From a virus (Duplodnaviria > Caudoviricetes), in IMG/VR virus record IMGVR_UViG_3300045303_000132, positions 1-55,699 of that record: a DNA stretch of 55,699 bases, one strand, 5' to 3'. This document shows, piece by piece, positions 15,373-46,808 of the stretch. Position numbers and translations under genes: made by a program. The notes below the pieces were generated by a model that was given only the letters and a program-made list of their open reading frames with translations, ran no database searches and was not told where the DNA came from. Numbering within the stretch: position 1 is the first letter of the stretch; each line of letters opens with the position of its first letter.

Positions 15373-15856
15373 TGACCGGCTTGAGTTCGTAGCCGAACTG
15401 ACCTTGCTGGGGTTCAGCCCCGAGAAGATCGCGGAGCGGCTGGGGGTCAGCGTAGGCGTCGTGAAGAGCGACCTGGAGCAGATCCGCATCCGGTGGCAGA
15501 AGAACCGCCAGAAATCCTACTCGCAGTTCATCGAGGAGGAGTTGGCGACCCAGCAGATGCTGATGCGCTCTCTCGAGGACGGCATCAAGTTGGGATCGTG
15601 GAAGCACGTCGAGACGGCTCTCAAGATCACCGAGCGCCGCGCTCGAGTGTTTGGCCTGGACCACACCGATCGTATGGAGCAGGCGCGGGTGGAGATCGAG
15701 GCACGGCAACTCGACATGATCAGTCGTGCGCTGGAGCGCGTGATGGAGGTGCTGGGGCTGACTGACGAGCAGCGTGAACTCGCCACGGAGACACTGATTC
15801 TGGAACTGGAGGAGGGCGACATCGTAGTCGACCCAGATGGAGAAGAGGACGAATGA
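15338..15856 (+). CDS. HTH DNA-binding protein, terminase-small-subunit-like
   Basis: GFSPEKIAERLGVS HTH and LKITERRARVFGLD motif typical of actinophage TerS-like proteins; start may be 15359. Confidence 0.65.
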   Translation: MSERNANVSARDDRLEFVAELTLLGFSPEKIAERLGVSVGVVKSDLEQIRIRWQKNRQKSYSQFIEEELATQQMLMRSLEDGIKLGSWKHVETALKITERRARVFGLDHTDRMEQARVEIEARQLDMISRALERVMEVLGLTDEQRELATETLILELEEGDIVVDPDGEEDE

Positions 15857-16785
15857 GTGTACTGACGGTCATCTCAACCACGTCGCAGCGGAAGAACCAT
15901 GCTGCGATCGCGTGTGCGAGATACAACGCGGATCACGGGTCGGTGGTGGTGCTCGATCAAGGGGGCGGCACCGTGCTCGACGGGTACGTGGAGGGGGACA
16001 CGTGGGTCCGCACGAAGCACGACAACCTCCTCGCGCAGTTGAGGACAGGGTGTGACCTCGCGCTCCTCGACGGCCACGACTACGTCGTCCTTCTCGATGA
16101 CGATGTCACCTACCTGACCCCGATCGAGCCGTCGGGCAACTCGTACCGCATCCGTTCGAAGAAGAACGTACCGGACGACCCGGACTGGCGGGGTGCCCTC
16201 ACGTACGAGAGCCTCTCATTCATCGACGACAACGTGGACACGTGGTTCCCCGGCGATCAGTCCATGCTGGTGGTGTCGTCCCGCCTGTTCTTCCCGAAGC
16301 CGAACGAGGTGGTCCCGCACTTCACTCCACTCACCATCGAGCGGTTCCCGTCCGTATTCAACGATCACGTCGTATGGAAGACTTCCAGGCTGGACGAGGT
16401 GCTCGGCGTGTTCGAGGACCTCGGGGTGCTGAACTACTCCGCGGGCGTGGACAAGGCGGGCGCGCTGGTGAACAACATCCTCGGCTACACGGTGGGTCGG
16501 CTCCAGTGGATCCGTGCCACGAAGTGGGACATCACCGGCAACGACGACTCCACGATCTACGACTTCGAGGACATCCCTGTCGACCAGAGGAACGTGTACC
16601 GGAACCAGGAGGATGCGAAGGCGCTGTTCAAGTTGCGCCCGTTCGTCGAGGAGAGCGGCCTGTCGTTCAAGGCGTCGATCACCAAGAACGGCAGCCTGAA
16701 CTCCTTCACCCGTACGACAGGCGTGTCTCTGGACAAGATGGTGGCGGACTATGTCCGCGGATCTGAGATGAAGGCGCTCATCTAG
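15853..16785 (+). CDS. Putative GT-A fold glycosyltransferase
   Basis: N-terminal strand VISTTSQR and DYVVLLDDDV (DxD) motif. Confidence 0.55.
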   Translation: MSVLTVISTTSQRKNHAAIACARYNADHGSVVVLDQGGGTVLDGYVEGDTWVRTKHDNLLAQLRTGCDLALLDGHDYVVLLDDDVTYLTPIEPSGNSYRIRSKKNVPDDPDWRGALTYESLSFIDDNVDTWFPGDQSMLVVSSRLFFPKPNEVVPHFTPLTIERFPSVFNDHVVWKTSRLDEVLGVFEDLGVLNYSAGVDKAGALVNNILGYTVGRLQWIRATKWDITGNDDSTIYDFEDIPVDQRNVYRNQEDAKALFKLRPFVEESGLSFKASITKNGSLNSFTRTTGVSLDKMVADYVRGSEMKALI

Positions 16786-19842: not shown

Positions 19843-19956
19843 ATGAGCGACCAACATGATTGTCTGGAAGATGGTTGCCAGTACGACGGCGCAGACAGCA
19901 ACCGGGCGTCGATGTTCTGCATCTGGTGCGGGCTGACCAGAGAAGACCTGGAGTGA
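19843..19956 (+). CDS. Micro Zn-binding protein (37 aa)
   Basis: RBS gaggag; HDC...C...CIWC; GTGA overlap with the polymerase. Confidence 0.55.
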   Translation: MSDQHDCLEDGCQYDGADSNRASMFCIWCGLTREDLE

Positions 19957-21989
19957 GCACGACACTCGAGATCAACAGCGTGACCCTCTCGGACACGGCA
20001 AAATCCATCATCCGCACGGCGTCCACCGCTGTCCTGGGTGGCCCGCTCCGGGTGACCCGCACCAAGGGGGACGCCGATCTTGCGTTTGACCTCCAGGACC
20101 AGAACGCCGCCGTGCGTACTCTCGGCCCGAAGCAGTTCCACGACACGGTCTGGATCGCCGGCAACGACGGGCAGGGCTTCCGCAAGGAGGTCGGCTACCC
20201 GAACGCTCAGTACTACGTCCGGTTCGCGCTGAAGCAGGCGTTCGGCATGGACCTGCACCTGTTCGACGACGACGTTCTCATCCTGGATACGGAGACGTTG
20301 GGGTCGGAGCACCGCTGGAACACCCATCCCCGTGACTTCTTCCGGCTGGGTCAGTACGCATGGGGCGAGGGTGAGGTAGTGCTCACCGAGGATTTCGACG
20401 AGGTGATCGAGGCGCTACGGTCGGCCCGGTTGATCATCGGGCACCAGATCCACACCTACGACCTGTCCTACCTGATGGGCGACGAGGCCCTCCACCTTCC
20501 GGTGTTCGACACCTTCGTCCACGCAACCTGCGTCACCCCCGCGCCCGACCGCTTTCTCAACGCGAAGGGTGTGACCCAACTCTCCAACTCGCCAGGGTCC
20601 GCGCTGGCGTTCCACTCGCTCGAGAACACCTGCTTCACCTTCGGCATCCCGGGGAAGCACGGCAACCTGAAAGAGATGGCGAAGCGCCACGGTTGTGACA
20701 TAGGCGAGATCCCCATGGACGACGAGTACCGCGACTATGCGCGACAGGACGTGGTGGCGAATCGGGAGTTGGCGCGGGCCATGTTCAGCGTTGCCGAGCC
20801 CACGGACTACGAGTGGCGTGAGCAGGAGGTAGCAGCGATCAACGCGCAGATCAGCCGTAACGGGTTCCGCGTGGACCGGGCGGTGGCCGAGGCGCGGGTG
20901 GAGGAACTCCAGCACCGGAAGAACGCCCTGCTCGTGGACCTCGCGCTGGACCACGGGTTCCCGATGACGGGGAAGCAGCCGTGGCGGAGCAACGCGGGGA
21001 AACAGGCGATCCTCGACATCCTGGGGCCGGACGCGAAAAGGCTGCCCAAGACGAAGAAGGGCGCACCGTCCCTGTCCGGTGACGCGATCAAGTCCGTGAC
21101 CGTAGGCACCGCGAACGAGGAGATGGGGGAGGCGCTCGGCGAACTGCTGGGTCAGCGGTCGCTGGCACAACTCGCGCTGGACAACGTGCAGGACGATGAG
21201 TTCGTCCACCCGGAGATCACCTCACTTCAGCGGTCACGGCGGTTCTCGGTGTCTGCCCCCGGCCTGTCCGTCTGGACAGCGCACGGCCCCGGCGCGATTG
21301 AGAAGTCCTACTTCGTGGCGGACGACGAGGACCACGTCCTGTACGAGATGGACTTCTCCGCGGCTGACGCTCGCGTGGTCGCGGCGTACAGCGGCGACAA
21401 GCGGTATCTCCGGGACATGACCAACCCGATGTTCGACGCTCACATCCAAACAGCGAGATGGTGCTTCGGGGCGAAGTTGGACGAAGACCCTAAGAAGTAC
21501 CGTCAGATCGCGAAAGACGTCACCCATGCCATCCCCTACGGCGCGGGAGGCAAGCGGGTCAGCGAGACGGTGGGCATCCCGGTGTCCCAGGGCCACGAGG
21601 TGATCAAGAGGTTCGGGAGCACCTACCCGTCGGTGGCTCGGTGGATGAAGCGCTCTCGTGAGGAAGGGAAGACCGGCACTCTGAAGAACGCATGGGGTGG
21701 GGTGCTCTACCTGGAGCCGGGCCGCGAGTACACGCAATCGCCCGCGCTGTTCGGTCAGAACGGCACCCGCGAACTCCTGGTGGACGGGATGATCCGGTGC
21801 CGGGATGCGGGGCTGCTCTGCTACTTGAAGATCACAGTCCACGACGCCGTGGTCTTCTCGTTCCCCAAGAGCAACCATGAGGCGATGAAGGCGAAGGCCG
21901 AGGCCTGCTTCACCACGAAGTTCCGGGAAGTTCCCTTCCCATTGACGAGCGGAAAGCCCGCTCATGACTGGTACAGAGCGGGGCATTAG
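19953..21989 (+). CDS. polA: Family A DNA polymerase with 3'-5' exonuclease
   Basis: ExoI LDTET, ExoII GH....YD, ExoIII YARQD; motif A DFSAADAR, motif B RQIAKDVTHAIPYG, motif C VHDA. Confidence 0.93.
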   Translation: MSTTLEINSVTLSDTAKSIIRTASTAVLGGPLRVTRTKGDADLAFDLQDQNAAVRTLGPKQFHDTVWIAGNDGQGFRKEVGYPNAQYYVRFALKQAFGMDLHLFDDDVLILDTETLGSEHRWNTHPRDFFRLGQYAWGEGEVVLTEDFDEVIEALRSARLIIGHQIHTYDLSYLMGDEALHLPVFDTFVHATCVTPAPDRFLNAKGVTQLSNSPGSALAFHSLENTCFTFGIPGKHGNLKEMAKRHGCDIGEIPMDDEYRDYARQDVVANRELARAMFSVAEPTDYEWREQEVAAINAQISRNGFRVDRAVAEARVEELQHRKNALLVDLALDHGFPMTGKQPWRSNAGKQAILDILGPDAKRLPKTKKGAPSLSGDAIKSVTVGTANEEMGEALGELLGQRSLAQLALDNVQDDEFVHPEITSLQRSRRFSVSAPGLSVWTAHGPGAIEKSYFVADDEDHVLYEMDFSAADARVVAAYSGDKRYLRDMTNPMFDAHIQTARWCFGAKLDEDPKKYRQIAKDVTHAIPYGAGGKRVSETVGIPVSQGHEVIKRFGSTYPSVARWMKRSREEGKTGTLKNAWGGVLYLEPGREYTQSPALFGQNGTRELLVDGMIRCRDAGLLCYLKITVHDAVVFSFPKSNHEAMKAKAEACFTTKFREVPFPLTSGKPAHDWYRAGH

Positions 21990-21991
21990 CG

Positions 21992-22858
21992 ATGAGCGAT
22001 GAGACAATGGACCTCTACCGAGGGATGGTGGTGGAGCGGCACAACATCTGGTGCGCCCGCCAGATGGGCGAGCCCCAGCCGTGGACTCACGACGTGGTGC
22101 TGGCGAACCGGAAGTTCACCAATATGTTCCGCGTCCTCGACCCCGGCTCGCAGTTCGTGTTCGACCTTGACAACGAGGACCCGGTGACCGTGATCGCCCG
22201 GCTGGTCTTCTACCGGATCACGAACCTGCCGTCTACGTGGTACGCGATGCGGGCCGCGCACGGACGCTACCCCACCGCCAATGACTTCACCCACTCGTCG
22301 GCATTCCTGTTCCAGATTCTCGACGCGCACCGGCTGAGTGGGAATCGCATCTTCAGCGGGGCGTACATCATCGTCCCTGAGCCCGGAACCGCGAACGACA
22401 AAGTGAGCGGGGCGCTACGCCTGACGGCCCTGTTCGTCAGGGAGAGGGCCGAGGCGTTCCTGGACGCCACCACTCAGGACGAGCGGTTCGACGTGCTGCG
22501 GTCCACCCCTGGTCTCGGGCCGTTCCTCTCGATGCAGATCCTCACCGATTGGGGCTACCTCCAGACCGCGGAGCCGGACCTGTCGTTCATCGTGGCTGGC
22601 CCCGGTGCTCGCCGTGGTGCCGCGCTGCTCTACCCGGCCAAGAAGCCGGAGGACGTGATCTACGACCTCGCCTTCGACTGGATGGATCATCCTTCCGTTA
22701 GGCTGGTCGGTCGCTCCCTCACGCTGATGGACGTGCAGAACACTCTCTGCGAGTTCAGCAAGTACGCGCGAGAACTCGTCGCCCCCCGCAAGAAGACGAC
22801 GTACCAGCCCTCGCACCCCGGCGCTCAGCCGGTCCCCGTTATCCCCCGATGGTGGTAG
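21992..22858 (+). CDS. 5-hydroxymethyl-dU DNA kinase family protein (aGPT-Pplase1 / HMUDK helical domain)
   Basis: ERHNIW..R..G.PQPWT.D.VL...KFTN.FR..D, FSGAY, HhH-like PGLGPFLSMQI..D, GPGARRG, DVQNTLCEFSKY. Confidence 0.82.
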   Translation: MSDETMDLYRGMVVERHNIWCARQMGEPQPWTHDVVLANRKFTNMFRVLDPGSQFVFDLDNEDPVTVIARLVFYRITNLPSTWYAMRAAHGRYPTANDFTHSSAFLFQILDAHRLSGNRIFSGAYIIVPEPGTANDKVSGALRLTALFVRERAEAFLDATTQDERFDVLRSTPGLGPFLSMQILTDWGYLQTAEPDLSFIVAGPGARRGAALLYPAKKPEDVIYDLAFDWMDHPSVRLVGRSLTLMDVQNTLCEFSKYARELVAPRKKTTYQPSHPGAQPVPVIPRWW

Positions 22859-22894
22859 TGGAACACCCGACCACCACGAGCCTAGCCTGCCTGC

Positions 22895-22920
22895 TAGGCT
22901 AGGGGTACGGCAACGCCCCT
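22895..22920 (+). promoter_or_regulatory. Promoter/leader repeat copy 8 (degenerate)
   Basis: gcctgctaggctaggggtacggcaacgcccct then RBS gaaagg. Confidence 0.6.
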
Positions 22921-22935
22921 AGAGAAAGGTGACAC

Positions 22936-24459
22936 ATGACCCAGACATACACGTTCGCCACGGCAAGCGAGGCGCTCCCATTCATCTGCTCTCGTATCCT
23001 GGACGTCGGCGACGAGGTCGGCAGCAGGAACGGGCGGGTGAAGGAATTCCTGAACACCCAGATCGTGCTGACCGACCCGCAGCGGCGGGAGATCCTCACT
23101 CTCAACCGCAAGGCCAACGTCTTCGCGCAGATTGCTGAGACGATGTGGGTGCTGGCCGGGCGCAACGACATCGAGTGGCTGAGCGCCTACCTCCCACGCG
23201 CCAAGGACTACAGCGACGACGGGGAGACGTGGAGGGGCGGCTACGGCCCGCGGATCCGCGACTTGACCTTGTTCAACGGACACCGGCTTGATCAACTCGC
23301 CTACGTCGTGGACGTACTTCAGGCCGACCCACTGTCCCGGCGTGCGGTGATCGCGATCTACGACCCTGCCGTGGATACGGAGCCGGGTAAGGACATTCCC
23401 TGCAACGACTTTCTCCAGTTCCAGAGTCGCCTCGGTGCCCTGCACATGACGGTGACCGTGCGGTCGAACGACCTGATGTGGGGCTGGTCGGGCATCAACG
23501 CATTCGAGTGGAGCACCATCCAGGAGATTGTGGCCCACCTGCTCGGCATCGCCGTGGGCACGCTGACGTTCAACATCGGCAGCCTGCATCTCTATGACCG
23601 GCATTGGGACAAGGCCAGTCGTCTCAAGTACGAGGCCGACCCGTGGGCGATCACTCCGTTCCAGATACCGGACGCGGTGGATCGGACGTTGGAGTGGGTG
23701 GACATCTACATCGACCGTTGGTTCGAGTGGGAGGCGTTGTGCCGGAAGGGCGAGGCCACGCTGGAGGGTCTGGGTGAGATCGAGGAGCCGCTGTTCCAGT
23801 CCTGGGCGGCGGCGATTGCGTACTTCTGGCAGCGCGAGGACCACTGGCTCCAGATGCTCCGGCGCACGGCGTTGGCAGCAGCCATAGCCAGGACCCCTGC
23901 CAGCGTGCTCTCAGAGGCCCGTACAGCGTCGTCCAGCGGTGCGCCGGGGGTAACCCACAACCTAGCCGCGCACGAGCGCACACGGGCGTTCTACGCCTTC
24001 GTTACCGACCTGCACGCCAAGAAGCACGCGTCGTACGGGAACTCGTGGATGAAGCGGGGCGAGAAGCTCTCCATTCTGGCGAACATGGCTCGTAAGGTGG
24101 ACCGGCTGGGGGTCGGCGATGAGTACGACAGTTCGGCGGACACCCTGATCGACCTCCTGGTCTACGCGAGCAAGTATCACTGCTGGCTCCTCGGCTGTGA
24201 GGCGAGCCCGGAGAACGTGAATCAGGGGCTGGCCGTGGCTTTGGCAGAAGAAGAGGAGACCGTGGGGCAGGCGGCGGACATCGCCATCGTGGACATCGTC
24301 GACGACTTCAACCTCTACTGCAACAACATCGACACGTACATCACCGACGAGAAGGTGGACTTCATAGGCGAGCTGATCCTCCGAGTGACGCCCATCGCCC
24401 GCGATGTCTGGTACGAAGAGACCCACGGCACCGAGTACCGCGGAGCGGACGTAGACTGA
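22936..24459 (+). CDS. Thymidylate-synthase-family protein (likely dUMP hydroxymethylase) fused to an Nmad1/DUF1599-like helical domain
   Basis: GYGPR, SRRAV, DIPCN catalytic Cys, RSNDLMWG...N, GSLHLY; C-terminal KKHASYGNSW...KVDRL...DTLIDLLVYA. Confidence 0.82.
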   Translation: MTQTYTFATASEALPFICSRILDVGDEVGSRNGRVKEFLNTQIVLTDPQRREILTLNRKANVFAQIAETMWVLAGRNDIEWLSAYLPRAKDYSDDGETWRGGYGPRIRDLTLFNGHRLDQLAYVVDVLQADPLSRRAVIAIYDPAVDTEPGKDIPCNDFLQFQSRLGALHMTVTVRSNDLMWGWSGINAFEWSTIQEIVAHLLGIAVGTLTFNIGSLHLYDRHWDKASRLKYEADPWAITPFQIPDAVDRTLEWVDIYIDRWFEWEALCRKGEATLEGLGEIEEPLFQSWAAAIAYFWQREDHWLQMLRRTALAAAIARTPASVLSEARTASSSGAPGVTHNLAAHERTRAFYAFVTDLHAKKHASYGNSWMKRGEKLSILANMARKVDRLGVGDEYDSSADTLIDLLVYASKYHCWLLGCEASPENVNQGLAVALAEEEETVGQAADIAIVDIVDDFNLYCNNIDTYITDEKVDFIGELILRVTPIARDVWYEETHGTEYRGADVD

Positions 24460-24776
24460 TGACGACCTACACCGCACTTCTTGCGCTGCCGGACGGGCTC
24501 ATGGCGGCAGATGCTGCCGCCCGTATCCCCGGAGCAGTGGTCGTCGACAACGTCCAGGCTGGTGTGTGGGTGTCTTGGAGCACCGAGGCCGACACCGACA
24601 ACGAGGGGATCCAGGCCCTCCAGGAAATCCGGCTTCGGGCTGAGATGTTCGCCGAGTTCGCGGATGGAGGCGTCACCCCGTCCGGTGCCGATCCCTCCTT
24701 GTTCCAGACTACCCCGTTCATCATCCTGCGAGGTGCTGCATTCATCGTCCACACGGAAGAGGTGCTATGTCTGTGA
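24459..24776 (+). CDS. Hypothetical protein in the modification cluster
   Basis: TGATG coupling. Confidence 0.65.
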   Translation: MTTYTALLALPDGLMAADAAARIPGAVVVDNVQAGVWVSWSTEADTDNEGIQALQEIRLRAEMFAEFADGGVTPSGADPSLFQTTPFIILRGAAFIVHTEEVLCL

Positions 24777-25015
24777 CGATCAACCACGGCACGAGAAGCG
24801 GGTACTACGCTCATCGCCGCCTGAGCGAGCCGCCGTGCGACGACTGTCGTGCGGCGATCAACGAGTACATCCGGGAGTACCGGAGCAGGACTGGCCTATC
24901 CCGCAATCGGGCTGGTGAGAAGATCCGGCGGAAGGCGTTGGCCGCGCTGCGGGACCGACACCGCGAGGAGTACGAGGATCTCCTGGTCGAGTTCCGTGCG
25001 GAAGAGATGATCTGA
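24767..25015 (+). CDS. Small Zn-binding DNA-binding-like protein
   Basis: HGTRSGY..HRR..E.PC..CR motif common in actinophages. Confidence 0.7.
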   Translation: MSVTINHGTRSGYYAHRRLSEPPCDDCRAAINEYIREYRSRTGLSRNRAGEKIRRKALAALRDRHREEYEDLLVEFRAEEMI

Positions 25016-25209
25016 TGGACCATCCGACGTTTGTCACCATCGAATACTGGCACCAGATGACTGCTTCCTGGGAGACCGGGCACGCCGGGATCAACCTGAT
25101 GAACCCTGCCACCTACGTCCAGAAGTTGGCGAAGCGCGGGGTCATCGCACGAGCCGTCGAGAAGGACACCGGGGTGACCGTGTACGGCGAAGGTGCAGAC
25201 CTCCTCTGA
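25015..25209 (+). CDS. Hypothetical protein
   Basis: TGATG coupling on both sides. Confidence 0.65.
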   Translation: MDHPTFVTIEYWHQMTASWETGHAGINLMNPATYVQKLAKRGVIARAVEKDTGVTVYGEGADLL

Positions 25210-25907
25210 TGGACGTGGTCTACGTGTGCCGAAACGGGGACAACCCCGAACTCCGGTACTCCCTCCGCACGCTGGCGAACGTGGATCACGACCGCGTGTG
25301 GATCTTCGGCGGCGCGCCCACCTGGATCGACTTCACCGCCGTCACTCACCAGAAGCGAGCGCAGTGTGGGACCCCGTACTCCTCCACCCGGAGCCATATC
25401 GCAGCCGCGTGCAACACCCCAGAGGTGAGCGACCCCTTCGTACTCTGGAACGACGACTTCTTCGCGATGCACCCGGTCGGCACCGTGCCGCTCTACCACC
25501 GTGGCCCGCTGGAGCCCCTACTCGAGAAGTACGTCAAGATCAGGACGCCGTGGGGGAAGGGGTTACTCCAGACAGCCGCGATGATGGGAGGGCGCGGACT
25601 GCTGGCGGGCGCGATGTGCTACGACGTTCACCTCCCACTGGTTGTCTGCAAGGCAGAGATGCGGGAGGCGCTGCGGTTGGCGAAGAACGCTTCGACCGAC
25701 GCCATTCACGTGAGGACGTTGTACGGGGCCTTGTCAGGGCTGGACGGAGTGGAGCACCATGACCCGAAGTTGATGCGTCGAAGCGACCCGTTCCCGCGTG
25801 GTGCGTGGCTGTCTTCCAGCGACGACACATTCCGTTCAGCCGTGGAGCCGGTGCTGAGATACCTGTTCCCGGACGCATCACTCTACGAGAAAGCGATGTT
25901 CAGGTGA
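25209..25907 (+). CDS. Stealth-like sugar-1-phosphate transferase (GT-A fold)
   Basis: MDVVY (CR1-like), ELRYSLR...VWIFGGAPTW, FVLWNDDFF (CR2-like), H.P (CR3-like), SSSD (CR4-like). Confidence 0.75.
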   Translation: MDVVYVCRNGDNPELRYSLRTLANVDHDRVWIFGGAPTWIDFTAVTHQKRAQCGTPYSSTRSHIAAACNTPEVSDPFVLWNDDFFAMHPVGTVPLYHRGPLEPLLEKYVKIRTPWGKGLLQTAAMMGGRGLLAGAMCYDVHLPLVVCKAEMREALRLAKNASTDAIHVRTLYGALSGLDGVEHHDPKLMRRSDPFPRGAWLSSSDDTFRSAVEPVLRYLFPDASLYEKAMFR

Positions 25908-26581
25908 CCCTCGGGATCCTACTCCCCACGCGGGGACGACCAGATAACCTCCACCGCTTCCTCTCGGCCACCGAGGACACTGCCGACGACTGGCACTTGT
26001 ACCTTCGGCTCGATTACGACGACCCGCAGGCACCCGCGTACGACGAAGTCATCGGGCGGGCGTACCGGCGCATCACGGTCCGCCACGGTCCCCGAGTCGG
26101 TTTCGGGGCGTCCCTGAACGAACTCGCCTTCCGGGCCGAGCGGGACGGGGTGTCGCACCTCGGCATGTTCGGCGACGACGTAGTGCCGGAGACCCCGCAT
26201 TGGGACACCCGGCTGGTCGAGGCGCTGGGCGACGACCTCGGCATCGCCTACGGTGACGACGGCCTACGGCACAAGCATGGACGCGACCTGCCGACGCACT
26301 ACGTCACCCACGCGGAGGTCTACCGCCGCCTCGGCTACCTGTCGCCACCCACGATCCGTCACCTGTATCTGGACAACGTGGCGAGGGACGTGGGTCTGTA
26401 TCTGAAGAACTTCGTGTTCGTGCCGGTCAGCATCAGGCACCTCCACCCGTGGGCCGAGGGCGAGCAGATCCACGACTCCACCTACGCCGAGGGCGGGCGC
26501 AACGCCGACCTCCGCCTCGCCGACCGGAGGGCGTACATCCAATGGACGCAGGACCGTGAGTGGAAGCGCCGCCTTCGGTGA
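25904..26581 (+). CDS. Glycosyltransferase family 2 (GT-A)
   Basis: ILLPTRGRP, D.DD, MFGDDVVP, H.Y.D, H.HP. Confidence 0.8.
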   Translation: MTLGILLPTRGRPDNLHRFLSATEDTADDWHLYLRLDYDDPQAPAYDEVIGRAYRRITVRHGPRVGFGASLNELAFRAERDGVSHLGMFGDDVVPETPHWDTRLVEALGDDLGIAYGDDGLRHKHGRDLPTHYVTHAEVYRRLGYLSPPTIRHLYLDNVARDVGLYLKNFVFVPVSIRHLHPWAEGEQIHDSTYAEGGRNADLRLADRRAYIQWTQDREWKRRLR

Positions 26582-27549
26582 CACTGACCGCGTTCCTCCA
26601 CGGCTACCCGCCGCTCTGGTCCATGGGCGGAGAGATGTCTACGCACCGCACCCTCCGCGCCGTGCCGGGTTCCATTGTTTACACGAAGACGCTCGAGGAC
26701 TATCAGTTCGACGGGGTCTCGGTGAAGCCAGCGACGGGTACGTCCTTCCAGTGCATCAAGGACGACGCAAGATCCGCCGGGGCGACTGTCCTGTTCGGGC
26801 ACTCGACATTGTCCATGGACACTATCCGGGCTGCGAGGCAGTTGAAACTCCCGTCCATCCTCGCCGTCCACGCGCCACGCCGATTCGGGGCAGACCTGCA
26901 TCGGGCGAAGTCGTCAGCCACCGTGCGTCTCTACAACACGGAGGCCGCTCGGAAGGACTGGCACGACCCGAGGGGGTGGCTGCTGCACCCGCCTGTCGGT
27001 GGTCCGTCCGACTTGCCGGAGGGGCCGGGCAACGCGATAACGCTGACCTCGTCTCTCGTGAACAAGGGGGCGGCTCGCGTGCTCAAACTGGCGACACGGC
27101 GCTGGGACCAGAGGTTCATCATCGTGGAATCGCCTGCGCATCCCACCCACGGCGACCCTGACTTCTGGCACGATGCGCAGAAACTCGACAACGTGGAGAT
27201 CTGGCCGCGCCTGCACCCCGACGAGATGGGCAAACTCTGGGCCGAGACTCGCGTGCTGCTGGTCCCATCGCGGTACGAGACCTACGGCATGGCCGCGATG
27301 GAGGCGGCGTGGCACCATATCCCCTCGGTACACGTGGACACCCCCCACGTCCGCGAGGGAATCGGCACGGCGGCGTGCCTCATCAAGACGACGCATCTCG
27401 AGGAACTGGACCACGCGCTCACCGAGGTAGAACTAGAGCACGACGTCTGGGCAGACCGGGCCTTCCACCGCGCTGAAAGCCTCGCGCAGCGAGAATCAGA
27501 TGAGTTGGCCCTGTTTGCGGCGGGTGTGGCCGGGCTCACACCCCTGTAG
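26578..27549 (+). CDS. Glycosyltransferase, GT-B fold (GT4-like)
   Basis: HGYPP...GGE, NKG, VLLVPSRYETYGMAAMEAA (EX7E). Confidence 0.85.
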   Translation: MTLTAFLHGYPPLWSMGGEMSTHRTLRAVPGSIVYTKTLEDYQFDGVSVKPATGTSFQCIKDDARSAGATVLFGHSTLSMDTIRAARQLKLPSILAVHAPRRFGADLHRAKSSATVRLYNTEAARKDWHDPRGWLLHPPVGGPSDLPEGPGNAITLTSSLVNKGAARVLKLATRRWDQRFIIVESPAHPTHGDPDFWHDAQKLDNVEIWPRLHPDEMGKLWAETRVLLVPSRYETYGMAAMEAAWHHIPSVHVDTPHVREGIGTAACLIKTTHLEELDHALTEVELEHDVWADRAFHRAESLAQRESDELALFAAGVAGLTPL

Positions 27550-27551
27550 AC

Positions 27552-27645
27552 GGCTCTCAGAGGCCCTCAGAACGCTCGCGGGGCCGGTAGTGGGGCACGG
27601 GTGCCCACCGCCAGCCCCGCGACGCTGTACGGGCCTCTGAGAGCC
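27552..27645. terminator. Long hairpin between the convergent genome arms (bidirectional terminator-like)
   Basis: ggctctcagaggccc/gggcctctgagagcc 15-bp outer stem plus inner tcgcggggc/gccccgcga stem. Confidence 0.65.
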
Positions 27646-27700
27646 ACCCCCGACCCCTGCTGCCTACTCGAGTTCACAACGGTGGGGCCGAGGGTGGGGT

Positions 27701-28528
27701 CTAGATGAGGGGACGCACCCTGAACTCGGCCTCGATGACGTAGTGGTCGCCGTGCTGGAAGAACTCCTTGTCGTCCAGAGCACGAGCAGCCTTCGCCGTC
27801 ACGCGTCCGTCCGCCTTGTAGGAGGCGATCACGTCGATGTTCCCGTGGCCGGTGTTCTCCCACTTCTTCAATTCATCCCACGCGGACGTGAACGGCTGGC
27901 CGAAGAACGTGTCGTCCTCGCGGTCCACGATGTTCTGGTCTCCACCGTAGAAGGCGAGGGCCTTGCCCTTCCCGTGCTCACGGCCCCAATCGCCGATCAC
28001 CTTGGCGAGCTTCTGGTTCCACTCGTAGTGGTTCACACCCTTGATCGGCTGGCCCTTGGGACTCCGGCCTTTCGTGAGGTAGTGGGCAGCGGCCACGCTG
28101 ACGCGGCCGACGTCCACGTTCGCGAAGGACACCCAGACGACGCCCTTCGGTCCCCAGCGAGGGAACTCGGCGTTCACGCCCGCCTGCGCGTAGAGCGCCT
28201 TGGAGCCGGGGATCCCTGGCTCGAAGCCGGTCTTCCACGAGTCCTTCTTGATGCGTCTGGTGTCGACCGCGACCCACGAGTCGGTGGCACCTTCCACACC
28301 CTTACCGTTCTCGCTCGGAACCCAGACCTTGTAGCCCATCGCCTTGCCCACGCGAAGCAGGAGTTGACCGGTCGGATCGGCACCAGGACCGGCCTCGGTG
28401 CCGGTGACCCACCAGATGTCGCGCTTCTTGGCGCGCTCGAACAGATCGGTGATATCCGCTTCTTGCTGCTTCGGCGTGTCGCTGAACTGGAGAGAGGCGT
28501 GCATCGCCCTGACGATGAAGTCCGTCAC
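27701..28528 (-). CDS. Endonuclease/exonuclease/phosphatase (EEP) family protein
   Basis: GTE, AAAHY, GGDQN, IDVI, GDH motifs of the DNase I-like fold. Confidence 0.7.
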   Translation of the reverse strand: MTDFIVRAMHASLQFSDTPKQQEADITDLFERAKKRDIWWVTGTEAGPGADPTGQLLLRVGKAMGYKVWVPSENGKGVEGATDSWVAVDTRRIKKDSWKTGFEPGIPGSKALYAQAGVNAEFPRWGPKGVVWVSFANVDVGRVSVAAAHYLTKGRSPKGQPIKGVNHYEWNQKLAKVIGDWGREHGKGKALAFYGGDQNIVDREDDTFFGQPFTSAWDELKKWENTGHGNIDVIASYKADGRVTAKAARALDDKEFFQHGDHYVIEAEFRVRPLI

Positions 28529-43203: not shown

Positions 43204-43884
43204 TCAGGCCGAGCCGGGGTCGACGGTGGTGACCGCGCCGCAGCCGTCGGGAGCCACGCCGCCGACGAAGCGGAAGCGGTGGGTGCCGTCCGGCAGTTCG
43301 TCGGACAGCCACTCGGCGTCGCCGGTCGTGGTGTCCAGCGCCAGCGGGATCGGACCGAAGCCGATGTTGTGACTGTCGGAGGTCGAGCCGGTGATGCGGA
43401 CGTAGTTGTCCTCACTGCCCGGCGTGCCCTCTTCGGTGACCGTCGCGCCCTTGACCGGGTAGATCCGGACGAAGTCGCCGGTGACGCCACCGCCGCACTC
43501 GCCGAGGATCTCCTGCCACACGACGACCACCACGTTGAAACGATCGGCCTTGCCGTCCGCCCAGCCGATGACCTCGCTGTCGTGCTCGATCGCCGTGGCA
43601 CCGCCCGCGTTCGCAATCCACTCAGGGTCGAGCCAGTGGAGGTCGACGTTCACCTCGATGGACTGGAGGCTCTTCACGCCCGGGATGTACCGCTTGATAG
43701 AGCCGTCGGCGCAGCGGCGAGTGAACTCCTCACCGTCGTCCACGTTGTCGCTGGTCTCGAAGGCTGCGGGACAATCATCAAGATAGCCCATATCGGCCCC
43801 GTACAGCGGGGTCAAGCACTCGTCGGCGAGGAACAGCCCCACCTTCTTGATTCGGCCCAGATCGGGCGTGGTGCAGGTTCCCAT
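43204..43884 (-). CDS. Major tail (tube) protein
   Basis: DDGEEFTRRCADG motif, size and position. Confidence 0.7.
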   Translation of the reverse strand: MGTCTTPDLGRIKKVGLFLADECLTPLYGADMGYLDDCPAAFETSDNVDDGEEFTRRCADGSIKRYIPGVKSLQSIEVNVDLHWLDPEWIANAGGATAIEHDSEVIGWADGKADRFNVVVVVWQEILGECGGGVTGDFVRIYPVKGATVTEEGTPGSEDNYVRITGSTSDSHNIGFGPIPLALDTTTGDAEWLSDELPDGTHRFRFVGGVAPDGCGAVTTVDPGSA

Positions 43885-43930
43885 TGTGTCACTCGCTTCC
43901 GAAGTGGGGGTATGTGGTAAACTGCCCGGT

Positions 43931-44371
43931 ATGCCTCGACCCGCTGGAAGCATCCCGGAGATCTTGCTGGAGACCGCCAAGACGGTCACTGACGAATGCC
44001 TCTACCCGCTGGATCGCGGGAAGCGAACACCCGTTTCCTACGACGGCCATGTGACTCCGGCGTCGAGGCTTCAGTGGGAACTCGTGACTGGCGAGTCTCC
44101 CGGTCCGCTGATGGTTCTGCACACCTGCGGGAATGGATCGTACGGATGCCTGAACTTCGGGCACCTGTACCTCGGCACTCAGGCCGACAACCATCTCGAC
44201 CGCTGTCTCGACGGACTGGCTGCCCGAGGACTGGATGAAGATCGGGTCCGCGCCATCCGCAGCCGAGCGGCCGAGGGCGTAGGCACGATGGCCCTCACTC
44301 GGGAGTTCGGCGTAACGAAGCGCACTATCCGGCAGGTCGTGACCCGCAAGACGTGGGCTTGGCTGGACTGA
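43931..44371 (+). CDS. HNH homing endonuclease with C-terminal HTH (antisense to the structural operon)
   Basis: VLHTCGN....CLNFGHLYLGTQADN..D; V..IR...LTREFGVTKRTI..VV.RKTW. Confidence 0.85.
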   Translation: MPRPAGSIPEILLETAKTVTDECLYPLDRGKRTPVSYDGHVTPASRLQWELVTGESPGPLMVLHTCGNGSYGCLNFGHLYLGTQADNHLDRCLDGLAARGLDEDRVRAIRSRAAEGVGTMALTREFGVTKRTIRQVVTRKTWAWLD

Positions 44372-45173: not shown

Positions 45174-46808
45174 TCAGGACGGGCAGGCGACGTTGTCGCA
45201 GATCTCGACCGGGATGTCCAGGCCGAGGGAGTTGCACCCACGGGCCAGGATACCCTCGTAGGACTCGGCGAACGCCGCGACCTTGTTCTGGCGGTTGAGG
45301 TTGTGGTCCCGGATCTCGGTGCCGAGGTCCAGCGTGCCACCGTCGAGGAAGGTGAAGAACCCGTTGGGGGCCAGCACCGAACCGAGGGTGAGCGGGAACT
45401 GCGGGTCCGTGCCGCCGGAGCCGAAGGACACCGGGTCCAGGTCCTGCGAGTAGACCACGTTGATGCCCTCGTTGGAGAACGCCGTGGAGAGCAGGCTGGC
45501 CGCGATGTTGGGGTCATCGACCGCCGAGGAGAAGACTCGACGGTTGATGAGGTCGAGCCGGACCGCCGTGAGCAGCGACTCGCCCACGAAGTAGTCCAAC
45601 TGGATGTCGCCGAGGCGCTGGTCCGAGCGGAGCGCGGCAGCGGCGGTGCCGACACCGTTCACCACGTTGGCGAAGACGGAGCCGAGGGCCTCGACCGTGT
45701 AGGTCGACATGACCGCGTCCCGCATCTTCTCGAAGAGCAGGACCTCACCGCGCCGGGCGTTCTGAATCGCCAGAGCGGCGAGGTAGCCCTGCCACTGCTC
45801 GGGGGCGAACCGGGTCTGGTAGTTTCCGACGGTGACGCAGGAGTAGACCGCGTCGACGCCGACCTCGTCGGTGTCACCGCAGTCGACATCGGCACACACC
45901 TTCCAGGTGTCGGGGTCAGCCTCGTCCACGAGCTCGTCGTCCTCACAGGTCCACACACCGAAGCCGTCCACCGGGAGGCAGATGGCGTTGAAGAACGTGA
46001 ACTTGCCGTGCGTCGCACCCAACGTCGGCAGCGCGTCCCGGATCGGACGAGCCGTGCTGCCCTGCACCGGGTTCGTGTAGATCGGCTGCGGCAGCGAGCA
46101 GCAGCCACCCGACGCGACCACGGCCTCCGGGCTGACGAACGCGTCCACCATCCGGGTGTCGGCGTTGATCTTGCCGGTGAGCGTGCGGTCCTCGGCGAAC
46201 GAGGTCTCGAAGCGGGCGACCCGCTCCTTGCCGGTCTTCAGGCTGCGACCCGAGGAGTCACGGAAGGCCTCGGCCAGCATGTAGAGCGTGGCGTCCTGGA
46301 GGGTGTCCCCGTTGACGATCACGCGGGTCGTGGTGGTGGCGAGGTCCTTCGCCGGCTCGTTGACGGACAGACCGGGGGTGCCGGTGAGGCCGAGGCGGGC
46401 GACCGCCTCCTGGACGGAGAGCATCTTGCCCTTCTTCGGCTTGGACGAGAGGGACTTCTCGGCGGGGTCCTTCTCCGGGTCTTCCTCGTCCTCAGGGTCG
46501 GCCTCGGGGTCCTCCTCCTCGGGGTCCTTCTCGGTGGCCTCCTCGTCCGGGTCGGGGATGTCGGCCAGCGCGGCGTCCACGTCGTTCGCGGCTGCCTGCT
46601 CCTGCTCGGCGACGGCCTTGACGGCGGCGTCAGCGGCGAAGTAGGACTCGCGGAGGGTGGTCAGAGCGTCGAGGTCCGGGGCCGAAGCACCGCGGAGCGA
46701 GTGGAGTTGGCGGGCGATGACGTCGCGTGCCTGAGTGAGTTCGGACAGCGAGAGAGTCTCTCCCGCGCCAACCCGACCCAGAATGCTGAGAGCCTGCTGG
46801 AGATCCAT
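45174..46808 (-). CDS. Major capsid (hexamer) protein with N-terminal scaffold-like region
   Basis: Helical/acidic N-terminus, VVASGGCCS.P...Y motif, LDLG.EIRD..LN..N....FAE..EG C-terminus. Confidence 0.82.
   Translation of the reverse strand: MDLQQALSILGRVGAGETLSLSELTQARDVIARQLHSLRGASAPDLDALTTLRESYFAADAAVKAVAEQEQAAANDVDAALADIPDPDEEATEKDPEEEDPEADPEDEEDPEKDPAEKSLSSKPKKGKMLSVQEAVARLGLTGTPGLSVNEPAKDLATTTTRVIVNGDTLQDATLYMLAEAFRDSSGRSLKTGKERVARFETSFAEDRTLTGKINADTRMVDAFVSPEAVVASGGCCSLPQPIYTNPVQGSTARPIRDALPTLGATHGKFTFFNAICLPVDGFGVWTCEDDELVDEADPDTWKVCADVDCGDTDEVGVDAVYSCVTVGNYQTRFAPEQWQGYLAALAIQNARRGEVLLFEKMRDAVMSTYTVEALGSVFANVVNGVGTAAAALRSDQRLGDIQLDYFVGESLLTAVRLDLINRRVFSSAVDDPNIAASLLSTAFSNEGINVVYSQDLDPVSFGSGGTDPQFPLTLGSVLAPNGFFTFLDGGTLDLGTEIRDHNLNRQNKVAAFAESYEGILARGCNSLGLDIPVEICDNVACPS

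What the first reader, a model, noticed from the sequence alone, without database searches (positions are those of the whole stretch)
21992..27549. Thymidine hypermodification cluster in which glycosyl/phosphoglycosyl transferases stand in for the usual amino-acid:DNA transferase
Seen: PolA, a 5-hmdU DNA kinase-family gene, a TS-family gene and then Stealth-like, GT2 and GT-B genes in one co-oriented block. Established: in characterised hypermodifying phages a dUMP hydroxymethylase supplies 5hmdU, the kinase phosphorylates it in DNA, and an amino-acid/amine transferase displaces the phosphate. I see no such transferase, PLP enzyme or radical-SAM gene here. Inference: a possibly new sugar or sugar-phosphate modification of 5hmU. 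Alternative: the GTs glycosylate virion proteins, as known for some mycobacteriophages.
Basis: partly seen in the sequence, partly recalled or inferred. Interest (0 to 1): 0.78.

Follow-up and report, generated by a model that had tools for sequence, protein, structure and literature searches.

The report
Phage 5hmU genes beside glycan cassette
This phage probably replaces thymine with 5-hydroxymethyluracil, but the three sugar-transferase genes next door look like a separate, mobile cassette that elsewhere sits among tail and capsid genes, so they most likely decorate virion proteins and not the DNA.

Summary
Two corrections apply.

1. The "5-hmdU DNA kinase-family" gene holds only the helical PF18723 domain, which GenBank records call aGPT-Pplase clade 1. 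It has no P-loop. The genome lacks the 5-HMUDK kinase family, the amino-acid:DNA transferase family, TAGT and radical SAM.

2. The mini-Stealth, GT-A-like and GT4 genes form a cassette that occurs without 5hmU genes:
- 0 of 74 non-clade mini-Stealth loci carry Pplase1 or TS homologues within 10 kb.
- 0 of 50 whole records carry PF18723, PF00303 or PF20691.
- 16 of 74 lie directly after a major-tail-protein gene.
- The same three genes recur in low-GC contigs.

In Pplase1 phages, the glycosyltransferase that alternates with kinase/AADT is TAGT: 14 versus 23 of 50 records, never both. Four close relatives carry TAGT; this window does not.

Verdict: a real, kinase-less 5hmU module sits next to a probable virion-glycosylation cassette. 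DNA glycosylation by the trio is unlikely (about 0.1) but not excluded.

The parts
19860..21989 (+). Family A DNA polymerase. It closes the replication module (SNF2 helicase, primase/helicase, DUF2800 nuclease, Enc34-type SSB).
   Evidence: PF00476 E 2.5e-24; phrog_17 E 3e-68; module genes; 80-85% identical in relatives L016 and L069.
21992..22858 (+). P0001: HMUDK_hel / aGPT-Pplase clade 1 protein. It is HhH DNA-glycosylase-like, has an invariant Cys253-Glu254, and is not a kinase.
   Evidence: PF18723 E 1.7e-46. No P-loop. GenBank homologues are named aGPT-Pplase1 or 'pyrophosphorylase'. C253, E254 and K257 are invariant in 42 sequences. Model pLDDT 93. VIA Z 9.2-9.6 to HhH-superfamily entries (mostly DNA glycosylases), including PaMx11 gp46 8z2m; Foldseek E-values are weak, 0.2-1.
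22936..24459 (+). P0002: TS-family, dUMP-hydroxymethylase-like domain (about residues 1-300) fused to a C-terminal region of about 200 residues that remains unassigned.
   Evidence: PF00303 E 1.8e-25. Best PDB hit is MilA CMP hydroxymethylase, 3e-28; Cys and Asn align with TS residues. SPO1 gp29, ViI-like and M6-like phages are the best cultured-phage hits. The C-terminal part has no Pfam, PDB or DUF1599 hit.
24459..25209 (+). Three small ORFs between the two modules: 24459-24776 (unknown), 24767-25015 (WhiB-like) and 25015-25209 (unknown).
   Evidence: phrog_12112 WhiB-like E 7.5e-9. Conserved in relatives. In four relatives a TAGT gene sits between TS-long and these ORFs.
25209..25907 (+). 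P0003: mini-Stealth (232 aa), a predicted hexose-1-phosphate transferase.
   Evidence: Stealth_CR2 sub-threshold; phrog_7999 E 4e-50. Model pLDDT 96; the top folds are CpsY and GNPTAB. The family has 392 relatives in IMG/VR.
25904..26581 (+). P0004: GT-A-like glycosyltransferase with PTRGRP and GDD motifs. The start is revised to the GTG that overlaps the Stealth stop.
   Evidence: phrog_14945 'glycosyltransferase' E 3e-33. No Pfam family. 71 GenBank phage records match, and those listed are annotated glycosyltransferase. Alignment A3.
26560..27549 (+). P0005: GT-B fold, GT4-type glycosyltransferase.
   Evidence: PF13692 E 3.1e-8, above the cut-off; PF00534 and PF20706 are weaker. Homologous to TurkishDelight gene 20, which lies between its capsid and tail genes: E 1e-14.
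27550..27700 (.). Convergent intergenic spacer with a long inverted repeat. It marks the end of the + strand block and of the - strand late block.
   Evidence: Read directly from the sequence; gene layout. The simple terminator scan did not list it.
15853..16785 (+). P0009: orphan protein with an LLDDD motif, in the slot where relative L016 has a TAGT gene. It is a candidate DNA-base glycosyltransferase, unproven.
   Evidence: No Pfam hit. ESM Atlas lead: a cluster in which 30% of members carry PF00535, score 0.96. hhalign to TAGT: probability 17-36%. BLAST matches only around the DXD motif, 11 of 18 identical. Slot mapping. No distant relatives among 1.84 billion representatives.
43204..43989 (-). 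Major tail protein, a proposed acceptor of the glycan cassette.
   Evidence: phrog_792 E 7e-10. Homologous to the TurkishDelight major tail protein, E 1.2e-7. 61% identical to the tail protein of L101, whose late operon carries the nearest non-clade mini-Stealth.
45174..46808 (-). Major capsid protein, a possible second acceptor.
   Evidence: phrog_777 E 1.2e-28. Homologous to the TurkishDelight capsid protein, E 9e-14.

Best explanation
Two functionally separate modules abut at the end of the phage's early/replication operon.

Module A (21992-24459) is a thymidine-replacement core. A dUMP-hydroxymethylase-like TS homologue makes 5hmdUMP, which the phage PolA would incorporate. A clade-1 aGPT-Pplase/HMUDK_hel protein, with an HhH glycosylase-like fold and an invariant Cys-Glu pair, then acts on 5hmU in DNA by a still unknown reaction. 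This would happen without the usual P-loop 5-hmdU DNA kinase, AADT, PLP or radical-SAM partners.

Module B (25209-27549) is a mobile three-gene glycan cassette: a mini-Stealth hexose-1-phosphate transferase, a GT-A-like transferase and a GT4 transferase. It most likely builds a glycan, possibly phosphodiester-linked, on virion proteins (major tail and/or capsid protein), as known for some mycobacteriophages. It probably does not act on 5hmU.

Shown: gene identities, folds, absences and co-occurrence statistics. Inferred: the 5hmU content of the DNA, the reaction of Pplase1, and the acceptor of the cassette.
For: Module A:
- PF18723 E 1.7e-46 and PF00303 E 1.8e-25.
- Hydroxymethylase affinity and Asn at the base-specificity position.
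- Cys253-Glu254 invariant in 42 sequences.
- HhH fold, including the AADT structure 8z2m at Z 9.2.
- The PolA-Pplase1-TS-long order is conserved in cultured phage Montesquieu, and the same genes occur close together in LuckyBarnes and in IMG/VR relatives.
- Kinase, AADT, TAGT and radical SAM are absent from the complete genome.

Module B is separate:
- Mini-Stealth homologues occur in 49 GenBank actinophage records. 0 of 5 checked (OneUp, Gaia, Rasputia, TurkishDelight, Fionnbharth) have a TS or Pplase1 gene.
- Of the best 80 of 392 IMG/VR relatives, 74 lie outside the window's clade. 0 of 74 have Pplase1, TS, kinase, Pplase2 or TAGT homologues within 10 kb. 16 of 74 have a major-tail-protein homologue ending at most 400 nt upstream on the same strand. 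30 of 74 have some structural homologue.
- 0 of 50 whole records carry PF18723, PF00303 or PF20691; 0 of 10 among those at least 90% complete.
- In TurkishDelight the GT-B and Stealth homologues flank the major tail protein, downstream of the capsid gene. The window's capsid, tail, GT-B and Stealth proteins all have homologues there.
- The nearest non-clade Stealth (47% identity, L101) is co-oriented with tail genes whose major tail protein is 61% identical to the window's.
- GT-A + GT-B + Stealth recur together in 8 of 9 low-GC contigs (L178-L186) with no TS or Pplase1 nearby or in 5 of 5 whole records checked. In the one contig examined (L180) a methyltransferase gene lies inside the cassette.
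- Capsid and tail-tube glycosylation by phage glycosyltransferases is reported for Che8, Corndog and Myrna (passages of PMC12363180 citing Freeman 2023).
Against: - In Montesquieu-type relatives the Pplase2+PLP+kinase set occupies the same end-of-operon position downstream of TS-long. A module swap is therefore conceivable.
- One unrelated contig (L048) has a P0004-family GT directly upstream of Pplase1, followed by an FkbM methyltransferase.
- In the window the cassette is on the early strand, not in the late operon.
- 44 of the 74 non-clade Stealth loci had no context I could classify with my limited query set. Many records are fragments, so whole-record absences are weaker than they look.
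- The capsid and tail proteins show no obvious Ser/Thr-rich tails (my reading).
- No glycan on any virion protein of this clade has been observed.
- The reaction of clade-1 Pplase is uncharacterised in the papers I read. M6 gp55 was dispensable in vitro; that gp55 is the clade-1 paralogue is my assumption.
Confidence: 0.55

Rival explanations
1. The trio acts on DNA: a GT or the Stealth enzyme transfers a sugar or sugar-1-phosphate to the hydroxymethyl group of 5hmU, and the other transferases extend it. This would replace the kinase+AADT route.
For: - The cassette lies within 750 nt of the hydroxymethylase gene, co-oriented, with overlapping reading frames.
- It is conserved with the 5hmU genes in clade relatives down to 57-69% identity (L069).
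- Kinase and AADT are absent, so something else may tailor 5hmU.
- In the wider Pplase1 set, GTs of the TAGT family do alternate with kinase/AADT: 14 against 23 of 50 records, none with both.
- L048 has a P0004-like GT adjacent to Pplase1.
- Sugar- and phosphosugar-bearing T derivatives are reported in SP-15-like phages (PMC13697223 abstract, conclusion and reference list).
Against: - None of the three families tracks 5hmU genes outside this clade: 0 of 74 and 0 of 77 loci by tblastn; 0 of 50 records by Pfam; 0 of 5 cultured phages.
- Many Stealth-bearing records are proviruses.
- Stealth and GT-B typically flank tail and capsid genes.
- Four close relatives carry TAGT genes right after TS-long in addition to the cassette, so the cassette is not what fills the DNA-GT role there.
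- Relative L047 keeps Stealth but lacks the GT-A and GT-B genes.
Confidence: 0.12
2. The cassette modifies a host cell-envelope glycopolymer, such as a teichoic-acid-like polymer, arabinogalactan or capsule. Stealth proteins do this in bacteria. The purpose could be to block superinfection or to alter the receptor during infection.
For: - The closest solved folds are an exopolysaccharide phosphotransferase (CpsY) and GNPTAB, which act on glycans.
- Many relatives are proviruses.
- Rasputia and L180 combine the family with further GTs, an acetyltransferase and methyltransferases, like polysaccharide loci.
- P0004 homologues in large Streptomyces phages sit beside a gene annotated 'bifunctional heptose 7-phosphate kinase/heptose 1-phosphate adenyltransferase', noted there as a nucleotidyltransferase.
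Against: - 16 of 74 loci sit immediately after the major tail protein gene inside late operons. That is an odd place for a lysogenic-conversion or early host-modifying function.
- I noticed no signal peptide or membrane segment when reading the three translations (not tested with a predictor).
Confidence: 0.15
3. The DNA is glycosylated, but by P0009 (15853-16785), an orphan GT-A-like protein that sits where relative L016 has a TAGT gene. The trio is unrelated to this, or only extends the sugar.
For: - L016 and L017 have a TAGT ORF (333 aa) between the g15338 and DUF3846 homologues, exactly the P0009 slot.
- The window and L069 have P0009 and no TAGT.
- The DXD region is similar: 11 of 18 identical, E 0.001 for the single comparison.
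- hhalign probability 36%.
- ESM Atlas lead to a cluster in which 30% of members carry PF00535.
Against: - No Pfam hit at E<=10.
- hhalign probabilities are low (17-36%) and cover only the N-terminal third.
- The family has no relatives beyond this clade.
Confidence: 0.2

Closest known systems
Thymidine hypermodification pathway of phages M6, ViI, PaMx11, PhiW-14 and SH-Ab 15599 (dUMP hydroxymethylase, 5-HMUDK P-loop kinase, AADT/aGPT-Pplase2, tailoring enzymes)
   Same: A TS-family hydroxymethylase-like gene and an aGPT-Pplase-superfamily gene lie next to the polymerase. A Cys-Glu pair is conserved, as reported essential in clade-2 enzymes (passages of PMC8989533).
   Different: There is no P-loop kinase (PF18751), no clade-2 AADT (PF18724), no radical SAM, and no homologue of Montesquieu's PLP enzyme. 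Only the clade-1 paralogue is present. None of the passages I read assigns clade 1 a role: 'clade 1' and 'aGPT-Pplase1' returned no occurrence in PMC8989533, and 'Pplase1' returned none in PMC13458397.
TAGT (PF20691, TET/JBP-associated glycosyltransferase) DNA-base glycosylation, as in Brevibacterium phage LuckyBarnes-type clusters
   Same: Close and distant Pplase1 phages place TAGT genes beside TS-long and Pplase1 and lack the kinase.
   Different: The window has no TAGT at E<=1. Its three GTs belong to other families, with no tblastn hit to the LuckyBarnes locus and therefore none to its TAGTs, and hhalign probability 19% for the P0004 family against TAGT.
Virion glycosylation of actinobacteriophages (Che8, Corndog, Myrna)
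   Same: Phage-encoded GTs with capsid and tail-tube proteins as acceptors (passages of PMC12363180). Here the GT-B and Stealth homologues flank tail and capsid genes in TurkishDelight and in many IMG/VR contigs.
   Different: Homology of the window's GTs to Che8 gp110 or Corndog gp38 was not tested. P0005 hits only TurkishDelight among GenBank phages at E<=1e-3. A Stealth-type sugar-phosphate transferase is not mentioned in the passages I read, and a search for 'Stealth', 'bacteriophage', 'phosphotransferase' and 'CpsY' listed no paper on a phage Stealth among the 10 shown of 39. The primary paper (Freeman 2023) is not held.
Stealth proteins (CpsY of M. tuberculosis, GNPTAB, capsule polymerases)
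   Same: Fold and conserved blocks.
   Different: The protein is only 232 aa, about half the size of the GNPTAB catalytic domains matched (419-446 residues; CpsY chains 239-263). Pfam CR2 scores below its cut-off. It is phage-encoded and its acceptor is unknown.

Membership tests
5-hmdU DNA kinase (5-HMUDK) | P-loop (Walker A) kinase domain, Pfam PF18751 Ploopntkinase3 | tested here: not met
   P0001 has no Walker A motif. PF18751 is absent from the whole genome at E<=1. The same model hits the Montesquieu and BouleyBill kinases and 22 of 50 Pplase1 records.
HMUDK_hel / aGPT-Pplase clade 1 (PF18723) | Pfam model above its gathering score over its full length | tested here: met
   159.3 bits against a cut-off of 25; profile positions 3-275 of 281; confirmed on the DNA.
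HMUDK_hel / aGPT-Pplase clade 1 (PF18723) | Helix-hairpin-helix DNA-glycosylase-like fold, as predicted for aGPT-Pplases | tested here: met
   Model pLDDT 93. VIA Z 9.2-9.6 to HhH-superfamily entries (AGOG, Ogg, a queuine-salvage enzyme) and to AADT 8z2m, with 213 residues aligned at rmsd 4.2. Foldseek E-values are only 0.2-1, and Z below 13 is weak for helical proteins.
HMUDK_hel / aGPT-Pplase clade 1 (PF18723) | Enzymatic activity on 5hmU or 5-PmdU in DNA | not testable with these tools
The role of clade 1 is not stated in the passages read.
Amino-acid:DNA transferase (AADT, PF18724, formerly aGPT-Pplase2) | Pfam model match | tested here: not met
   No match in the genome at E<=1. P0001 hits only PF18723 at E<=10.
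dUMP hydroxymethylase (TS superfamily) | TS fold with the catalytic Cys, and Asn (uracil) rather than Asp (cytosine) at the base-specificity position | tested here: met
   PF00303, 90 bits against a cut-off of 24.3. In the PDB alignments the query 'PC' Cys aligns with the TS Cys, and the query Asn aligns with the TS Asn where MilA has Asp. The residue roles are recalled from the TS literature.
dUMP hydroxymethylase (TS superfamily) | Closer to known hydroxymethylases than to thymidylate synthases | tested here: met
   MilA 3e-28 against the best TS at 9e-18. SPO1 gp29 3e-36 and ViI-like about 1e-38 against T4-like td about 1e-9. That SPO1 gp29 is a dUMP hydroxymethylase is recalled.
dUMP hydroxymethylase (TS superfamily) | Product is 5hmdUMP rather than dTMP | not testable with these tools
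   Needs an enzyme assay or nucleoside analysis.
Stealth (hexose-1-phosphate transferase) | Pfam Stealth CR models above their cut-offs | tested here: inconclusive
   CR2 scores 21.6 bits against a cut-off of 39.4; no CR1, CR3 or CR4 hit.
Stealth (hexose-1-phosphate transferase) | Stealth catalytic fold | tested here: met
   The top 10 Foldseek rows shown are all Stealth proteins: CpsY E 7e-9, GNPTAB 5e-8 to 1e-6. ELRYSLR- and NDD-type blocks are conserved in 40 sequences.
GT-B / GT4 glycosyltransferase | Pfam Glyco_trans_1_4 or Glycos_transf_1 match | tested here: met
   PF13692 scores 34.4 bits against a cut-off of 27. PF00534 scores 25.0, just below 26.4.
GT2 (PF00535) | Pfam model match | tested here: not met
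   0 Pfam families for P0004 at E<=10. 0 of 6 family members hit a GT family. Only phrog_14945 'glycosyltransferase' matches.
TAGT DNA-base glycosyltransferase (PF20691) | Pfam model match anywhere in the genome | tested here: not met
   0 matches at E<=1. The model hits 14 of 50 Pplase1 records, including 4 close relatives.
Phage virion-glycosylation system | Glycan detected on capsid or tail proteins | not testable with these tools
   Only genomic context is available.

The most novel reading that the evidence does not exclude
A kinase-independent thymidine hypermodification. The mini-Stealth enzyme transfers a hexose-1-phosphate from a UDP-sugar onto the hydroxymethyl group of 5hmU in DNA. 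The phosphodiester-linked sugar either stays, extended by the GT-A and GT4 enzymes into a phosphoglycan-modified thymine, or acts as the leaving group that the Cys-Glu clade-1 Pplase needs, doing the job of the missing 5-hmdU DNA kinase.
Probability: 0.08. Interest if true: 0.85.

Novelty: new variant of a known kind. Interest (0 to 1): 0.42.

Why it matters
If the best reading holds, the headline claim of a new sugar-phosphate thymine modification falls away. Three testable points remain.

1. A phage clade seems to make 5hmU DNA and keeps only the clade-1 aGPT-Pplase, with no kinase or AADT. In the passages I read, no role is given for clade 1, so this clade isolates the question of what that enzyme does.

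2. Among Pplase1 phages, TAGT glycosyltransferases and the kinase/AADT route were never found in the same record (0 of 50). This predicts base-J-like glycosyl-5hmU in cultured actinophages: LuckyBarnes and probably some Microbacterium phages. Two TAGT-positive IMG/VR records have the same lengths as GenBank phages Neferthena and Pajaza. My searches found no report of glycosyl-5hmU in phage DNA. These phages can be tested directly by LC-MS.

3. A compact Stealth-type sugar-phosphate transferase family with at least 392 IMG/VR relatives often sits right after the major tail protein gene. This suggests phosphoglycosylation of virions, which would matter for phage immune recognition and therapy design.

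Tried and rejected
Megablast of the whole region against GenBank phages found nothing.

P0001 has no PDB relative by sequence at E<=10. The Foldseek hits were all weak, E 0.2-1.

The C-terminal part of P0002 has no Pfam hit (residues 241-507), no PDB hit (residues 301-507) and no DUF1599 hit (whole genome). The MazG/Nmad1-like label from another first-stage note is therefore untested; only two weak PHROG hits of unknown function exist.

P0008 (27701-28528) has no Pfam or PHROG hit. I thought it resembled an EEP nuclease from motifs I recalled, but I have no support for that.

P0009 was pursued as a possible DNA glycosyltransferase. It has no Pfam hit. Its 74 homologues are all close or fragments, and an exhaustive profile search returned only 5 hits. 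hhalign probabilities to TAGT are 17-36%. This remains inconclusive.

The simple promoter/terminator scan found 0 promoter-like sites and 3 terminator-like sites, fewer than in shuffles (mean 4.1), so operon structure is inferred from gene spacing only.

I looked for Ser/Thr-rich tails on the capsid and tail proteins as glycosylation hints and saw none. This was my own reading, not a test.

I considered that the end-of-operon position shared with Montesquieu's Pplase2/PLP/kinase genes shows a functional swap. I rejected it as decisive because the same spot is a generic place for accessory genes, and the cassette occurs without 5hmU genes elsewhere.

The primary paper on mycobacteriophage virion glycosylation is not held, so I rely on passages of PMC12363180.

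No complex prediction, sequencing-run or read-laying job was run.

Papers, and what I saw of each:
- PMC8989533, PMC13458397, PMC13229309, PMC13697223, PMC11955845, PMC12363180 and bioRxiv 10.1101/2023.12.21.572611: passages found by term search only.
- All other papers: search listings only.

Full report
**What the window is.** The window is a complete IMG/VR virus record of 55,699 bp with direct terminal repeats and about 64% G+C. Genes on the + strand up to 27549 are early and replication genes: SNF2 helicase, an 881-aa primase/helicase-like ORF, DUF2800 nuclease, Enc34-type SSB and PolA. Genes on the - strand from 27701 onward are lysis and structural genes: M23-type endolysin, tail fibre-like proteins, tape measure, major tail protein, major capsid protein, a portal/MuF-like protein and terminase. 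A WhiB-like gene and the nearest cultured relatives point to an actinobacterial host.

**Checking the observation.**
- PolA, the TS-family gene and the GT-B gene pass Pfam's own thresholds.
- The Stealth-like call rests on a sub-threshold CR2 hit. A confident model (pLDDT 96) has Stealth enzymes as its best PDB matches: M. tuberculosis CpsY at E 7e-9 and GNPTAB at E 5e-8. I accept the Stealth assignment.
- The 'GT2' gene has no Pfam family at all. It is GT-A-like only by PHROG annotation and motifs.
- The 'kinase-family' label is wrong in substance. The 288-aa protein is entirely the PF18723 helical domain and has no Walker A motif. GenBank annotators call its homologues aGPT-Pplase clade 1 or 'pyrophosphorylase'. 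In Pfam's current naming PF18723 is HMUDK_hel and PF18724 is ADDT, the amino-acid:DNA transferase.
- The real kinases of relatives belong to PF18751. That family is absent from this complete genome.
- AADT, TAGT and radical SAM are also absent.

**The 5hmU module.**
- The TS-like domain of the 507-aa protein is more similar to the CMP hydroxymethylase MilA (E 3e-28) than to any thymidylate synthase in the PDB (best 9e-18).
- Among cultured phages it is closest to Montesquieu (44% identity). Next come SPO1 gp29, ViI-like phages and M6-like phages (E 1e-30 to 1e-39). T4-type td genes score about 1e-9.
- In the alignments the catalytic Cys is kept. The residue that is Asp in cytosine-specific MilA is Asn here, as in uracil-specific thymidylate synthases. 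The residue roles are recalled from the literature.
- I therefore read the protein as a dUMP hydroxymethylase. The C-terminal 200 or so residues stay unassigned.
- P0001 folds with high confidence (pLDDT 93) into a helix-hairpin-helix glycosylase-like structure. VIA-align Z-scores of 9.2-9.6 tie a queuine-salvage enzyme, several DNA glycosylases and the PaMx11 5-PmdU glycinyltransferase 8z2m. The Foldseek E-values are weak.
- Across 42 diverse homologues, Cys253, Glu254 and Lys257 are invariant. A Cys with a neighbouring Glu is what the NEB group found essential in clade-2 enzymes (passages of PMC8989533).
However, the gene taken for a kinase is itself a paralogue of the transferase family, and what is missing is the kinase.

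**What relatives carry.** A profile of P0001 homologues found 235 relatives in IMG/VR, and I examined the best 80.
- The window's own clade shares PolA, Pplase1, TS-long, WhiB and the three transferase genes. It comprises L015-L018, L047 and L069, plus L008, which the mini-Stealth search found.
- A sister group at 36-46% identity has the Montesquieu arrangement, with Pplase2, a PLP enzyme and a kinase.
- I took 50 of the 80 records through whole-record Pfam searches. 22 have the kinase, 16 have ADDT and 14 have TAGT.
- No record combines TAGT with kinase or ADDT. The split is 23 with kinase or ADDT, 14 with TAGT and 13 with neither.
- Fisher's exact test gives p = 2e-5, not corrected for relatedness.
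- Among the 24 records at least 90% complete the split is 10, 10 and 4.
- TAGT is the TET/JBP-associated glycosyltransferase family. The two 'HMC glucosyltransferase' genes of LuckyBarnes, lying between TS-long and Pplase1, belong to it.
It is carried by TAGT.

**TAGT in the window's clade.** Four close relatives have a TAGT ORF directly after TS-long: L007 at 6053-7075, L016 at 12546-13604, L017, and L047 at about 2408-2674. The coordinate mapping is mine. L016 and L017 have a second TAGT ORF, at L016 3775-4776.
- The window has none, and neither do G001 and G050 (L069).
- In L008 there is no room for one between TS-long and the next gene.
- Where L016 has its second TAGT, the window and L069 have P0009 (15853-16785).
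- P0009 is an orphan with an LLDDD motif and only weak GT-A-like signals. It may or may not be the DNA glycosyltransferase of this phage.

**The three transferase genes.** Mini-Stealth homologues occur in 49 GenBank actinophage records: Mycobacterium 34, Gordonia 7, Microbacterium 6 and Streptomyces 2.
- In TurkishDelight the homologues of P0005 and P0003 flank the major tail protein gene, downstream of the capsid gene. The window's capsid, tail, GT-B and Stealth proteins all have homologues there.
- In Fionnbharth the gene lies two genes upstream of the small terminase gene, at the left end of the genome. In Rasputia it heads a run of three GTs, an acetyltransferase and a methyltransferase.
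- None of five such phages has a TS-family or Pplase1 gene.

The IMG/VR results agree.
- A family profile found 392 relatives. Of the best 80, 74 lie outside the window's clade.
- None of the 74 has a homologue of Pplase1, TS-long, Pplase2, kinase or TAGT within 10 kb.
- 16 have a major-tail-protein homologue ending within 400 nt upstream on the same strand. 30 have some recognisable structural gene and 14 have another GT.
- The remaining contexts were not classifiable with my query set.
- Whole-record searches of 50 of the 74 found PF18723, PF00303 and PF20691 in none. Ten of these records are at least 90% complete, and 12 are proviruses by IMG/VR's classing.
- The nearest non-clade homologue (47% identity, L101) is co-oriented with tail genes whose major tail protein is 61% identical to the window's.

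The GT-A-like family is large, with at least 547 relatives.
- Among its best 80, nine low-GC contigs (L178-L186) carry GT-A and GT-B homologues together, and eight of these also carry the Stealth homologue. No TS or Pplase1 homologue lies nearby, and none was found in five whole records, which are fragments.
- In L180 a methyltransferase gene lies between the GT-A and GT-B genes.
- None of the 77 non-clade loci has a 5hmU-module homologue.
- The trio therefore behaves as an autonomous cassette.
- Relative L047 keeps the Stealth gene but has lost the other two. Several cultured phages also have Stealth alone.

**Evidence for the DNA reading.**
- The cassette is tightly packed behind the 5hmU genes and is conserved with them in the clade.
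- It occupies the position that Pplase2, PLP enzyme and kinase hold in the sister group.
- One unrelated contig, L048, has a P0004-family GT directly upstream of Pplase1, followed by an FkbM methyltransferase.
- Glycosylated and phosphosugar-bearing thymine derivatives exist in SP-15-like phages (PMC13697223).
- Many records are fragments.

I therefore keep about 0.12 for the trio acting on DNA, including extension of a sugar started by another enzyme.

**Mechanism proposed.**
- Module A: the hydroxymethylase converts dUMP to 5hmdUMP. Host kinases and the phage PolA put 5hmU into DNA. This step is inferred from characterised systems (PMC8989533 and PMC13458397 passages).
- The Cys-Glu clade-1 Pplase then flips out 5hmU and modifies it by a reaction that is not known. 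No phage-encoded kinase supplies a phosphate leaving group.
- Module B: the GT-A-like and GT4 enzymes and the Stealth enzyme use nucleotide sugars to build a glycan. The Stealth step adds a sugar-1-phosphate on the major tail and/or capsid protein.
- All acceptor assignments are inferred from gene context only.

**Novelty and score.**
- The headline claim is not supported for these three genes.
- What remains is a kinase-less, AADT-less 5hmU phage clade and a Stealth-containing cassette. Both are variants of known kinds.
- My literature searches found no report of glycosyl-5hmU in phage DNA or of a phage Stealth enzyme. They cover only the held library, and supplements were closed.
- Interest is 0.42.

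Noticed in passing
Loci L015-L069 (50 IMG/VR records with a Pplase1 gene): TAGT (PF20691) and the kinase/AADT pair (PF18751/PF18724) were never found together: 14 records with TAGT, 23 with kinase or AADT, 13 with neither. This predicts glycosyl-5hmU in TAGT-type phages, including cultured LuckyBarnes. Two TAGT-positive records have the same lengths as Microbacterium phages Neferthena (41706) and Pajaza (39307); Pajaza's match is below the family cut-off (E 5e-5).
   Followed up: partly
L007 6053-7075; L016 3775-4776 and 12546-13604; L047 about 2408-2674: Close relatives of the window carry one or two TAGT-family ORFs. One lies directly after TS-long and one lies in the slot where the window has P0009. 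The window itself has none.
   Followed up: yes
window 15853-16785: P0009 is an orphan 310-aa protein with an LLDDD motif. It is confined to this phage clade: 74 close homologues and no distant ones among 1.84 billion representatives. It may be a divergent GT-A or TAGT-like enzyme.
   Followed up: partly
L048 9228-11597: In an unrelated contig (51% G+C), a P0004-family GT, a Pplase1 gene and an FkbM-type methyltransferase lie in a row. L039 also has an FkbM methyltransferase just upstream of Pplase1.
   Followed up: partly
L178-L186 (low-GC IMG/VR contigs), for example L180 9971-13068: The same GT-A, GT-B and mini-Stealth genes recur as a cassette in phage contigs of 36-44% G+C. In L180 a methyltransferase gene lies between the GT-A and GT-B genes and the Stealth gene is on the opposite strand.
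   Followed up: partly
L047/L099 4264-6126: A close relative (Pplase1 78% identical over the 69 residues that lie on the contig) keeps the mini-Stealth gene but lacks the GT-A-like and GT-B genes. About 1.2 kb of other sequence lies before the endolysin gene.
   Followed up: no
window 27701-28528 (- strand): The last gene of the late strand encodes 275 aa and is conserved in relatives (36-76% identity). It has no Pfam or PHROG match. It faces the GT-B gene across a spacer of about 150 nt with a long inverted repeat (27553-27650).
   Followed up: no
window 23836-24459: The C-terminal 200 or so residues fused to the hydroxymethylase domain have no Pfam, PDB or DUF1599 match. The same long form (513-563 aa) is found in Montesquieu, LuckyBarnes and many IMG/VR relatives.
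   Followed up: partly
L039 10090-10536: A small protein with weak dual-specificity-phosphatase-like matches (PF00782, E 3.5e-4, below the cut-off) lies between a weak ADDT match and the kinase in a Pplase1 locus.
   Followed up: no
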